Part shown: positions 25,252 through 29,793 of the stretch, one piece after another
Position numbering within the stretch: the first letter of the stretch is position 1
Layout: each line of letters begins with the position of its first letter
DNA from: Octopus vulgaris
Lineage: Eukaryota
Direction: 5' to 3'
Assembly (NCBI GenBank): GCA_951406725.2
Contig: OX597817.1
Coordinates: 141,856,001 to 141,920,000, forward strand
Length of the DNA stretch: 64,000 bases
Notes under the pieces: model-generated
What the model saw: the letters and a program-made list of their open reading frames with translations, nothing else
The model's database searches: none
What the model was told of the DNA's origin: nothing
Translations under genes and position numbers: made by a program

Positions 25252-25368
<117 letters not shown>

Positions 25369-25495
25369 TAATAGTTATCGCCAAGCTAACATGGCAGTGC
25401 AGAAAACTAGGATGACGAATCGCCATGTTAGCTTGGTGATAACTATTAATATCCAGTACTGCTGCCGTAGGCTTCTTTAGAGAGATTTAAAAATA

Positions 25496-25502
<7 letters not shown>
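25369..25502. mobile_element. Miniature fold-back relative of the 362-bp hammerhead element
   Basis: 27-bp arms TAATAGTTATCGCCAAGCTAACATGGC / GCCATGTTAGCTTGGTGATAACTATTA, then GCTGCCGT..TTTAGAGAGA as in 28405-28450; flanked by (TA)n. Confidence 0.7.
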
Positions 25503-25530
<28 letters not shown>

Positions 25531-26818: not shown

Positions 26819-26860
<42 letters not shown>

Positions 26861-27029
26861 ATAATAGTTATCGCCATACTAATATGGCATTCTTATAAAA
26901 ATAAGAATAAAGCTGACCGCTTATTAGCTCCATGAGGCCATCGCCTTAAGTTAGCTATTTGATACACAAACTGTATCCATATAACCTTCGAACAAGGGAG
27001 GTCAGTCGCCCCACACTACTTGACCGACA

Positions 27030-27071
27030 GCTACAGACGCGTTTCGGGGTATTGCCCCTTTTCAATGTAGC
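27030..27071 (-). ncRNA. Hammerhead ribozyme, U3-A8 core variant (unit 1)
   Basis: GCTACA TTGAAAA GGGG-CAATA-CCCC GAAAC GC GTC TGTAGC. Confidence 0.8.
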
Positions 27072-27391
27072 GTAGTCAGACCAGTAGGTGTCGCTTCTGA
27101 CAATCTCTGTTCGAAGGTTTTATTTACCTAGTTTCGGTGGAATACATCCACTTGTTTTCAATAATAGAAATATTAAAATTACTAAGTCTCTCTAAAAGAG
27201 AACACGGCAGCGTTCCCGGAAAATCATAGTTATCGCCATACTAATATGGCATTCTTATAAAAATAAGAATAAAGCTGACCGCTTATTAGCTCCATGAGGC
27301 AATCGCCTTAAGTTAGCTATTTGATACACAAACTGTATCCATATAACCTTCGAACAAGGGAGGTCAGTCGCTCCACACTACTTGACCGACA

Positions 27392-27433
27392 GCTACAAAC
27401 GCGTTTCGGGGTATTGCCCCTTTTCAATGTAGC
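27392..27433 (-). ncRNA. Hammerhead ribozyme, U3-A8 variant (unit 2, GUU triplet)
   Basis: As unit 1 with GTT at the cleavage triplet. Confidence 0.75.
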
Positions 27434-27753
27434 GTAGTCAGACCAGTAGGTGTCGCTTCTGACAATCTCTGTTCGAAGGTTTTATTTACCTAGTTTCGGT
27501 GGAATACATCCACTTGTTTTCAATTATAGAAATATTAAAATTACTAAGTTTCTCTAAAAGAGAACACGGCAGCGTTCCCGGAAAATAATAGTTATCGCCA
27601 TACTAATATGGCATTCTTATAAAAATAAGAATAAAGCTGACCGCTTATTAGCTCCATGAGGCCATCGCCTTAAGTTAGCTATTTGATACACAAACTGTAT
27701 CCATATAACCTTCGAACAAGGGAGGTCAGTCGCTCCACACTACTTGACCGACA

Positions 27754-27793
27754 GCTACAGACGTTTCGGGGTATTGCCCCTTTTCAATGTAGC
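27754..27793 (-). ncRNA. Hammerhead ribozyme, U3-A8 variant (unit 3, shortened stem III)
   Basis: GAAAC GTC; a 2-nt loss leaves the ACGT palindrome. Confidence 0.7.
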
Positions 27794-28183
27794 GTAGTCA
27801 GACCAGTAGGTGTCGCGACAATCTCTGTTCGAAGGTTTTATTTACCTAGTTTCGGTGGAATAATCCACTTGTTTTCAATAATAGAAATATTAAAATTACT
27901 AAGTCTCTCTAAAAGAGAACACGGCAGCGTTCCCTGAAAATAATAGTTATCGCCATACTAATATGGCATTCTTATAAAAATAAGAATAAAGCTGACCGCT
28001 TATTAGCTCCATGAGGCCATCGCCTTAAGTTAGCTATTTGATACACAAACTGTATTCATATAACCTTCGAACAAGGGAGGTCAGTCGCTCCACACTACTT
28101 GACCGACAGCTACATACGCGTTTCGGGGTAAATAAAACCTTCGAACAGAGATTGTCAGAAGCGACACCTACTGGTCTGACTAC

Positions 28184-28225
28184 GCTACATTGAAAAGGGG
28201 CAATACCCCGAAACGCGTCTGTAGC
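28184..28225 (+). ncRNA. Hammerhead ribozyme, U3-A8 variant (inverted unit); predicted cleavage after 28219
   Basis: GCTACA TTGAAAA GGGGCAATACCCC GAAACGCGTC TGTAGC; perfect 6-bp stem I and 4-bp stem II. Confidence 0.8.
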
Positions 28226-28463
28226 TGTCGGTCAAGTAGTGTGGAGCGACTGACCTCCCTTGTTCGAAGGTTATATGGATACAGTTTGTGTATCAAATAG
28301 CTAACTTAAGGCGATGGCCTCATGGAGCTAATAAGCGGCCAGCTTTATTCTTATTTTTATAAGAATGCCATATTAGTATGGCGATAACTATTATTTTCCG
28401 GGAACGCTGTCGTGTTCTCTTTTAGAGAGACTTAGTAATTTTAATATTTCTATTATATATATA

Positions 28464-28511
<48 letters not shown>

Positions 28512-29487
28512 ATTATATATATATATACGGAGCAATTCATTCACAAAAAAATTATTTCTGAAGATATCCTTGACTCTGTTAGTATCTAATGTGGCAATTT
28601 AAAAATGATAATAACAGAAGCAATAATATAGGCGATTGCAGGGCCCAAAGAAACATTAAATAGCTGAAGGATTAAAATTAATCAAAGAACATGCTATTTT
28701 GGCAAATTAAATCTGACTTTTAGCTGTTATTTCCAGCAGGTAGACACACTTAGTATATCTTTTGATTAATTTCAATATATATATACAATTATTTATATGT
28801 GTGTGTATGTATGTATTATGTTATTATTATATTTTAAATAATTATATGTTTATTTCCCATTAATTATTTTAATCTTCATGAATTCTTTCTGACTCAAGCT
28901 TTCTTCGATTTTATACAACGCGACATTTATGTAACATCTTTTTCATTTTTATTTTATATTCCTTTTCTATTTGTATATTTACTGTTTCAACTTGCATGCT
29001 TCTGAAAGATCATTAGTGGAATCAACCAATCAAATTCAAATGTGAAAATGCCAATTTGAATCATAACCAAATATACATTATACGTACAATCACATTTTTT
29101 TTATTCCATTCCTGATCACAACTGCCTAACGAACATGAACGTGAGATTCTGAGTAGAAGTTTGGGGTGGTTTTGCAGCTCCAGTATTCCAGTTACGTTTT
29201 TTCCCACCTTGTTTCACATTTATGTGCTAACTCTGCTATATATATATATATATATATATAATAGTTATCGCCATACTAATATGGCATTATTATAAAAATA
29301 AGAAAAAAGCTGTCTGCTTATTAGGTAAGAGAGTTGGTATGTGAAAGCACCTCGTTGGATGTATGAAAGAGAAAAAAGAGTGAAAAAACTACAGAAGTCT
29401 TGTGTTATATGGTTAAAGAATATATTTAAATCCTTATGTTAGAAAAATATTATAATTTGCGTATAGTAACATAGTTGTTGGAGAAAT

Positions 29488-29594
29488 AAAAATATGGAAC
29501 GCTTCACGAATTTGCGTGTCATCCTCGCGTAGGGGCCATGCTAATCTTCTCTGTATCGTTCCAGTTTTAGAATATGTACCGCCGTAGCTAGTAC
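29488..29594 (-). pseudogene. U6: Full-length (107 nt) U6 snRNA copy, probably a retropseudogene
   Basis: GTACTAGCTACGGCGGTACATATTCTAAAACTGGAACGATACAGAGAAGATTAGCATGGCCCCTACGCGAGGATGACACGCAAATTCGTGAAGCGTTCCATATTTTT; ACAGAGA box intact, several substitutions, no upstream promoter. Confidence 0.95.
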
Positions 29595-29595
29595 A

Positions 29596-29647
29596 ATGCC
29601 CCCGGCGCAAGGATGACACGCAAATTAATGAAGCGTTACATATTTTC
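29596..29647 (+). pseudogene. U6: Partial U6 snRNA (3' half), inverted duplicate
   Basis: ATGCCCCCGGCGCAAGGATGACACGCAAATTAATGAAGCGTTACATATTTT. Confidence 0.85.
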
Positions 29648-29793
29648 ATTTCTCCCAAAACTATGTTACTATAACGCAAATTTTATAACATTTTTCTAAC
29701 AAAACGATTTAAATATATTCTTTAACCAAATATCGCAAGCCTTCTGTAGTTTTTCACTCTTTTTTGTCTTCTATATATATATATATATATATA

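What the first reader, a model, noticed from the sequence alone, without database searches (positions are those of the whole stretch)
29260..29771. U6 snRNA fused to the tail of the hammerhead element and folded back at U6 +1
Seen: the minus strand reads full-length U6 (29594-29488), ~165 nt of linker, then 65 nt matching the 362-bp element terminus (4 mismatches by eye), then (TA)n. Directly at the U6 5' end the strand flips and repeats the U6 3' half plus ~125 nt of linker. No promoter lies upstream. Known: mammalian U6/L1 chimeras can form by RtcB ligation of the U6 cyclic phosphate to a 5'-OH RNA, and hammerhead cleavage yields 5'-OH ends. Inference: a U6/PLE-type chimera or U6-headed SINE mobilised by the same machinery. 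I know of no description of this, but could not search.
Basis: partly seen in the sequence, partly recalled or inferred. Interest (0 to 1): 0.9.

Follow-up and report, generated by a model that had tools for sequence, protein, structure and literature searches.

The report
U6 fused at retrotransposon ribozyme cuts
In this animal genome, copies of the splicing RNA U6 are fused exactly at the predicted self-cutting (hammerhead ribozyme) site of Penelope-type retrotransposons at 20 places, which likely records the ribozyme cutting inside germ-line cells and a cellular RNA ligase joining U6 to the cut end before the RNA was copied into DNA.

Summary
The 165-nt 'linker' is the 3' end of a second Penelope-like retrotransposon (family B, RT plus GIY-YIG). 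It starts exactly at that family's predicted hammerhead cut. The 65-nt tail of the 362-bp element is most likely a separate nested insertion.

The pattern recurs. I found 20 loci in 11 Penelope-like families or subfamilies where U6 meets the first base after a predicted cut, with exactly five bases of U tail in 33 of 33 arms. The hammerhead is well supported for 14 loci and weaker for 6. U6–SINE joins scatter over 6–16 nt.

All 13 two-armed loci carry U6 in both arms. In the 9 measured, the arms end at the family's two fixed ends. One further locus joins another hammerhead's 5' product cut-to-cut.

Best reading (0.6): hammerhead cleavage, RtcB-type ligation of mature U6, then twin-primed insertion into (TA)n. 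Main rival (0.3): an RT jump onto U6. It is not a U6-headed SINE. I found no report of this in 8 paper searches. It is fossil evidence that these ribozymes cut in vivo, which is an open question.

The parts
29237..29260 (.). (TA)n target microsatellite, left side
   Evidence: sequence
29260..29324 (-). 3'-terminal 65 nt of the 362-bp hammerhead element (family A). Likely a separate 5'-truncated insertion nested at the end of family B; shares 3 nt (CTA) with it
   Evidence: 93.8% to the neighbouring copies; absent from 29 of 29 other B loci; B's usual long end falls here
29325..29487 (-). Long arm of Penelope-like family B, from the first base after the predicted hammerhead cut to the family's long 3' end
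   Evidence: 1244 candidate copies; hammerhead upstream in other copies; RT and GIY-YIG frames further upstream
29488..29594 (-). Full-length U6 snRNA retrocopy ending in five T, joined with no extra base to the post-cut base of family B
29595..29595 (.). One extra base where the two arms meet
   Evidence: sequence
29596..29647 (+). Second arm: U6 positions 56-107 (90% to U6), with the same five-base join
29648..29771 (+). Second arm: family B from the predicted cut to near its short 3' end (about +125 to +130)
29772..29793 (.). (TA)n target microsatellite, right side
   Evidence: sequence

Best explanation
U6 is joined, with exactly five tail bases, to the first base after a predicted hammerhead cut of a Penelope-like element; likely the ribozyme cut the element's RNA in the germ line, an RtcB-type ligase joined mature U6 to the 5'-OH end, and the element's own enzyme copied the chimeric RNA into a (TA)n site. 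Steps. (1) Shown: partner is a Penelope-like 3' end; the join is at the predicted cut; it recurs at 20 loci. (2) Inferred: cleavage leaves a 5'-OH 3' product that still holds the RT start sites. (3) Inferred from human data: mature U6 ends in five U with a 2',3'-cyclic phosphate, and RtcB seals the two ends. (4) Inferred: RT starts at both fixed start sites, on the two nicked target strands, and both copies read through the same junction. At this locus one arm reached U6 +1 and the other stopped at U6 56; the arms were then joined head to head. (5) Inferred: a 5'-truncated family A copy later landed in the (TA)n at B's end.
For: Join precision: 33 of 33 arms at 20 loci have exactly 5 bases between U6 A102 and the post-cut base, 29 of them TTTTT. 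By contrast 37 U6-SINE/tail joins spread over 6-16 nt. The U6 genes have runs of 6-9 T, so five matches the processed RNA described in PMC6789731. A descriptor scan not told the joins put cuts at the join positions of B, D, E and J. Such sites occur at 0.2-0.8 per kb in the window, and once in 1850 nt of element B, at the join. All 13 two-armed loci have U6 in both arms; none of the 7 single-armed loci has a U6-free inverted arm. Arms end at two fixed points per family, also in U6-free copies, like the two RT start sites in PMC11167929. Independent rare jumps in both arms would not give 13 of 13. L095 joins the 5' product of a different, intact hammerhead (seen natively in L099) cut-to-cut to family C, a second donor expected to end in a cyclic phosphate. 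In family F, the only recognisable foreign RNA among 6 arms lacking the native base before the cut was U6. RtcB joins U6>p to 5'-OH RNA (PMC6789731) and circularises hammerhead-cut animal retrozyme RNA (PMC7229834).
Against: No RNA junction evidence was obtained. U6 is also joined in this genome to SINE 5' ends and to another U6's 5' end (two loci). These acceptors should not be 5'-OH ends (recalled: Pol III 5'-triphosphate; methylated U6 cap), so RT jumps onto U6 probably happen here. Cleavage of these hammerheads was not tested. Six loci rest on one degenerate hammerhead copy or on homology (H, I, D2, D3), and the C and G cores deviate (GCAA, UAAA). Minimal PLE hammerheads cut poorly in vitro (PMC4209133). 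In the anole element uncut RNA is the main template and no RNA-seq reads ended at the cut (PMC11167929). RtcB and Usb1 genes and the U6 end chemistry were not checked in this organism.
Confidence: 0.6

Rival explanations
1. The ribozyme cut is real, but the join is made by the reverse transcriptase. It reaches the 5' end of the cut RNA and jumps onto the 3' end of a free U6 molecule. The second arm then copies across the cDNA-splinted pair, or copies the first cDNA.
For: It predicts the same position. U6-SINE and U6-U6 joins in this genome are easier to explain by jumps. Template switching to U6 was proposed for L1, L2, RTE and SINE partners in vertebrates (PMC4476161). An unchecked note from another genome (e1-7858584) describes a template switch near a PLE hammerhead site.
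Against: No extra or missing base in 33 of 33 arms, against heterogeneous SINE joins. U6 is in both arms at 13 of 13 two-armed loci. The only donors seen at cuts are U6 and a hammerhead 5' product.
Confidence: 0.3
2. A few U6-PLE fusions became master copies (U6-headed SINEs) and were recopied, so the 20 loci are not independent events.
For: Family E has six U6 loci with the same join.
Against: Eleven different partner families or subfamilies. The B junction was seen once. The E partners share 42-46 of 50 bases with each other, and one is closest (47 of 50) to a U6-free copy. U6 uses an upstream promoter (PMC4494074) that these copies lack.
Confidence: 0.05
3. The join is a DNA-level event or an RT stall at the palindromic hammerhead stem, with no RNA cleavage.
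For: A few family F copies begin within 3-5 nt of the cut without U6, so the site may be a truncation hotspot.
Against: A stall or DNA repair gives no reason for single-base precision across 11 families with different sequences, nor for a five-T U6 end, nor for the cut-to-cut join at L095.
Confidence: 0.05

Closest known systems
U6/LINE-1 chimeric retrocopies formed by RtcB ligation (Moldovan et al. 2019, PMC6789731; passages read)
   Same: Mature U6 with its T tail joined in sense to the 3' part of a retroelement; proposed 2',3'-cyclic phosphate plus 5'-OH chemistry.
   Different: In L1 the joins fall throughout the RNA with no motif, and the nuclease that makes the 5'-OH is unknown. Here the partner is Penelope-like, and the 5' end falls at one base, the predicted cut of its own ribozyme.
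U6 chimeras with L2, RTE and SINEs in lizard, platypus and opossum (PMC4476161; passages read)
   Same: U6 captured by retroelements other than L1. The U6-SINE and U6-LINE joins in this genome are of that kind.
   Different: The text has no occurrence of 'Penelope'. The joins there are ascribed to template switching.
Minimal hammerheads of Penelope-like elements (PMC4209133, parts 1-2 of 4 read) and the anole Poseidon element in vitro (PMC11167929, parts 1-2 of 4 read)
   Same: Minimal type I motif with palindromic stem III and U3-A8 variant; two RT start sites that define a 30-40 nt tail; AT-rich targets; inverted arms (PMC8557442, passages).
   Different: Those papers report low or protein-assisted cleavage and no in vivo evidence of cutting. 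No foreign RNA joined at the cut appears in the parts I read.
Animal non-LTR retrozymes circularised by RtcB (PMC7229834, passages; bioRxiv 10.64898/2026.07.22.740005, part 1 of 5)
   Same: Hammerhead-cut ends are RtcB substrates. The 362-bp array in the window looks like such a tandem element.
   Different: Self-circularisation of one RNA. Here a host snRNA, or another element's cut product, is the donor.
SINEU, SINEs with U1/U2 heads (PMC4494074; passages read)
   Same: snRNA sequence at the head of a retroposed unit.
   Different: SINEU families descend from master copies. These look like independent events, and the partner elements abound without U6.

Membership tests
U6/LINE-1 chimeric retrocopy | U6 ending in the mature T tail, joined in sense to a retroelement 3' part | tested here: met
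U6/LINE-1 chimeric retrocopy | Partner is L1 or L1-mobilised, with poly(A) tail and target duplication | tested here: not met
   partner is RT + GIY-YIG family B ending in (TA)n
U6/LINE-1 chimeric retrocopy | Joins scattered along the partner, no motif | tested here: not met
   fixed at the predicted cut in 20 of 20 assigned loci
U6/LINE-1 chimeric retrocopy | Join made by RtcB at the RNA level | not testable with these tools
   only assembled contigs of runs guessed to be RNA were offered
Penelope-like element (partner, family B) | RT followed by C-terminal GIY-YIG endonuclease | tested here: met
   broken frames in L168. Pfam GIY-YIG E 0.0075, below cut-off, and no Pfam hit on the RT piece. 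Atlas 0.96 to GIY-YIG clusters (PF01541 on 40-42% of members) and 0.95-0.96 to HTH_animal/RVT_1 clusters
Penelope-like element (partner, family B) | Minimal hammerhead in the pseudo-LTR | tested here: met
   7-bp stem I, UUGAAAA core, 1-bp stem II, GAAA, CCGG, UU cut; predicted only, cleavage untested; not found by Rfam-type models, descriptor match only
Penelope-like element (partner, family B) | Two 3' ends about 30-40 nt apart, inverted 5' arm, microsatellite target | tested here: met
   ends near +130 and +165; inverted arms in several copies; (TA)n flanks
Penelope-like element (other partner families C-J) | Own RT/GIY-YIG reading frame | not tested
   assigned by hammerhead, two fixed ends, inverted arms and (TA)n only
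snRNA-headed SINE (SINEU type) | Many copies of one head-body junction from a master copy | tested here: not met
   U6-B junction at one locus only (40 of 542 candidates scored)
snRNA-headed SINE (SINEU type) | Same test for family E (six loci) | tested here: inconclusive
   only one U6-free E copy was held for comparison
Functional U6 gene | Upstream and downstream flanks shared with the U6 gene cluster | tested here: not met
   gene cluster on C1 has its own flanks; here the flanks are an inverted arm and family B

The most novel reading that the evidence does not exclude
Penelope hammerheads cut in the germ line and are routinely resealed by the tRNA ligase as part of the element's cycle. 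Resealing with the element's own piece leaves no trace; the step shows only when U6 or another element's cut piece is sealed on by mistake. U6 retrocopies then act as a natural, base-exact map of which hammerheads were active in vivo, including cores that look broken (A3-U8, G3-C8, GCAA, UAAA), in any genome rich in Penelope-like elements.
Probability: 0.45. Interest if true: 0.87.

Novelty: new variant of a known kind. Interest (0 to 1): 0.76.

Why it matters
The role of hammerheads in Penelope-like elements is described as unclear (PMC8557442). They cut poorly in vitro (PMC4209133), and no cut ends were seen in anole RNA-seq (PMC11167929). Under both leading readings (0.9 together), these 20 loci are heritable records of cleavage at the exact base in germ-line cells. 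They also identify a source of the 5'-OH end that U6 chimeras need, which is unknown for L1. They suggest a cheap genome-only assay for active ribozymes, and they support twin priming from two RT start sites as the origin of inverted Penelope arms.

Tried and rejected
Linker as U6 gene flank: rejected; the true genes form a cluster on C1 with different flanks.

Linker as part of the 362-bp element: rejected.

Assembly fold-back: rejected; the arms differ at 26 of 185 columns.

Rfam: the whole window gave only U6 at the gathering threshold, so the hammerheads rest on a descriptor. The foreign piece at L095 gave only sub-threshold hairpin-type matches before it was recognised as a hammerhead 5' product.

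RNA: no RNA holder was listed on record for the family A monomer. Contigs of four runs guessed to be RNA showed no U6-like loose end at the A cut among the rows shown, with 8 loose ends not shown. This is uninformative, because these are contigs and human-like records are filtered.

Whether related organisms hold this locus without the 65-nt tail was not determined.

U6 joined inside a PLE reading frame: no tblastn hit of family B frames in 19 unassigned loci. Only one family was used as query.

Literature: no paper held U6 snRNA + hammerhead + Penelope. Searches listed none whose title or abstract opening describes this. The library lacks most subscription journals, and I read no supplements.

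Earlier scan notes: nothing for this genome or this sequence.

Full report
Observation. On the minus strand: full U6 (29594-29488), 163 nt, 65 nt matching the end of the 362-bp element at 93.8%, then (TA)n. On the plus strand, after one extra base: U6 56-107, about 124 nt of the same linker, then (TA)n. The arms agree at 159 of 185 columns. The window lies in a 2.8-Gb animal assembly.

What the linker is. It is a dispersed repeat with 1244 candidates, 40 scored. None of the 29 other loci fetched carries U6 or the 65-nt tail. The copies are 5'-truncated to varying lengths, several have an inverted arm, and they end in (TA)n. The longest copies run about 1 kb or more upstream into broken frames with RT-like and GIY-YIG-like motifs. 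Pfam gives GIY-YIG at E 0.0075, below cut-off, and nothing for the RT piece. The Atlas places the two pieces at 0.95-0.96 beside GIY-YIG and HTH_animal/RVT_1 clusters. I call this Penelope-like family B. In 27 of the 29 copies the sequence continues upstream of the point where U6 is attached, and it forms a minimal hammerhead there: 7-bp stem I, UUGAAAA core, 1-bp stem II, GAAA, palindromic CCGG, then UU and the cut. The U3-A8 core is a described PLE variant (PMC4209133). U6, with five T, meets the first base after that cut.

Is it a one-off? U6 has 802 candidates in the genome. The true genes are a tandem cluster with T runs of 6-9. An exact 16-base U6 end matched 242 places, of which the first 100 were listed. 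A filter that favours AT-rich partners gave 60, all listed; one search used the same filter and its listing was cut. I fetched 45 loci whose partner did not look like a SINE start. Seventeen were assigned to PLE-type partners; with the window locus and two found earlier this makes 20. The other 28 were LINE or SINE pieces, microsatellite only, a copy of the gene flank, or unresolved. Part of the output was cut. The 20 are a lower bound, selected by exact match and by the filter.

For the 20 loci, U6-free copies of the partner were obtained by direct search for C, D, F and G, and by chance among held loci for E, H, I, J and D3. A strict descriptor scan of all held sequence, not told the joins, returned cuts at the join positions for B, D, E and J. 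F has a canonical CUGAAGA core and a 6-bp stem I read by eye. C (GCAA) and G (A3-U8, UAAA) fit a relaxed descriptor. These seven families cover 14 loci. H (G3-C8 core, 8-bp stem I), I and D3 each rest on one degenerate copy, and D2 on homology to D; these cover 6 loci. In 33 of 33 arms exactly five bases lie between U6 A102 and the post-cut base, 29 of them TTTTT. In 37 joins to SINE starts or short LINE-type tails, the distance to the first G of the element ranges from 6 to 16 nt, although 23 of these 37 also have a run of five T. Relaxed-descriptor cuts occur at 0.2-0.8 per kb in the window, and only once in 1850 nt of element B, so the coincidence is not chance. U6-free copies nearly always keep sequence upstream of the cut: B 27 of 29, C 18 of 19, D 17 of 19, G 12 of 12, F 13 of 13. 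These sets were selected for covering the post-cut part.

Two controls. First, in family F a genome-wide pattern for arms lacking the native base before the cut found six: three U6 arms at two loci, one five-T stub in a duplicate beside one of them, and two abutting AT-rich repeats. No other RNA was seen. The numbers are small and only one family was tested. Second, the one non-U6 foreign piece at a cut (L095, family C) is the 5' half of a different hammerhead, ending at its own predicted cut. The intact motif, with a 6-bp stem I, is in L099.

The fold-back. Each measured family has two fixed 3' ends before (TA)n: C 87/119, D 112/156, E 59/90, F 115/198, G 165/208, B about 130/167. In the 9 two-armed U6 loci of families B to G (8 excluding the window) one arm generally ends at each; L136 (E) and the window's long arm were not scored by the script because their ends are not followed directly by (TA)n, and families H, I and D3 were only partly measured. 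Single-armed copies use either end. This matches the two RT start sites, with extension of both nicked strands, reported for an anole PLE (PMC11167929). All 13 two-armed loci have the U6 junction in both arms, and the 7 single-armed loci have no U6-free inverted arm. The simplest reading is two priming events on a template that already held U6.

The 65-nt tail. Family B's long end falls exactly where the tail starts, sharing three bases, and 23 U6-free B arms end there in (TA)n. The tail is the fixed 3' end of family A. A later 5'-truncated A insertion into B's flanking (TA)n is most likely (about 0.85, inference). A single three-part event is not excluded, and the order could not be dated.

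Mechanism. Human U6 ends in five U with a 2',3'-cyclic phosphate, and RtcB joins it to 5'-OH RNA (PMC6789731). RtcB also seals hammerhead-cut animal retrozyme RNA (PMC7229834). I put cleavage plus ligation at 0.6. The rival, an RT jump from the cut end onto U6, is at 0.3. It gains from U6-SINE and U6-U6 joins in this genome, whose acceptor ends should not be ligatable (recalled), and from earlier template-switch readings (PMC4476161). Both readings need the ribozyme to have cut. Against both stand the low in vitro activity of minimal PLE hammerheads and the lack of cut ends in anole RNA-seq. No RNA-level evidence was obtained here.

Novelty. U6 chimeras with L1, L2, RTE and SINEs are known. 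Term searches of the full texts on U6 chimeras gave zero occurrences of 'Penelope' in PMC4476161, zero of 'Penelope', 'hammerhead' and 'ribozyme' in PMC11838501 and in PMC13247085, and zero of 'snRNA' in PMC8557442. Eight library searches turned up no description of U6 joined at a PLE hammerhead cut. The library is incomplete and no supplements were read. Verdict: a new variant of a known kind, interest 0.76, because it makes in vivo cleavage of PLE hammerheads directly testable.

Noticed in passing
window 26860-28456: Family A: about 3.5 tandem 362-bp units at 97-98% identity plus an inverted arm, each with a U3-A8 hammerhead (cut 28219/28220 on +). A young retrozyme-like PLE array. No U6 join to family A was seen in the listings.
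   Followed up: partly
L095:1500-1700 and L099:2499-2560: The 5' product of one hammerhead element is joined cut-to-cut to the 3' product of family C, in both arms of an insertion. The intact donor hammerhead (U3-G8 core) lies in L099 and its family is unknown.
   Followed up: partly
L032-L090 (for example L038, L041, L065, L081): Most dispersed U6 copies are fused to tRNA-type SINE starts or to a recurring 50-60 nt LINE-type 3' tail that always begins near the same GGCGG. Why this site is such a hotspot is unexplained; no Rfam ribozyme was found in the window, which holds such SINEs.
   Followed up: partly
L160 and L162: U6 joined directly to the 5' end of another U6; in L160 followed by a LINE-type tail. 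Suggests RT jumps onto U6.
   Followed up: no
L033-L037, L042, L051 (G000:C1:139.42 Mb): Tandem cluster of seven U6 genes about 1.1-1.4 kb apart. Many retrocopies carry a second U6 5' variant that is not in this cluster.
   Followed up: no
L047, L193-L196, L114, L209: All four Watson-Crick pairings at hammerhead positions 3 and 8 occur among PLE families of this one genome (G3-C8 from a single copy, A3-U8, U3-A8, C3-G8).
   Followed up: partly
L179, L140, L146, L178: U6 partners left unresolved. L179 is AT-rich and ends in (TA)n, so it may be a further PLE family.
   Followed up: no
L144: A short inverted piece of the U6 5' stem sits directly upstream of U6 +1, unlike the two-armed loci.
   Followed up: no
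window 25346-25530: Short two-armed insertion related to family A between (TA)n runs.
   Followed up: no
L047/L087 (G000:C20:43.47 Mb): Two near-full U6 copies facing each other across a (TA)n run, with no partner sequence.
   Followed up: no
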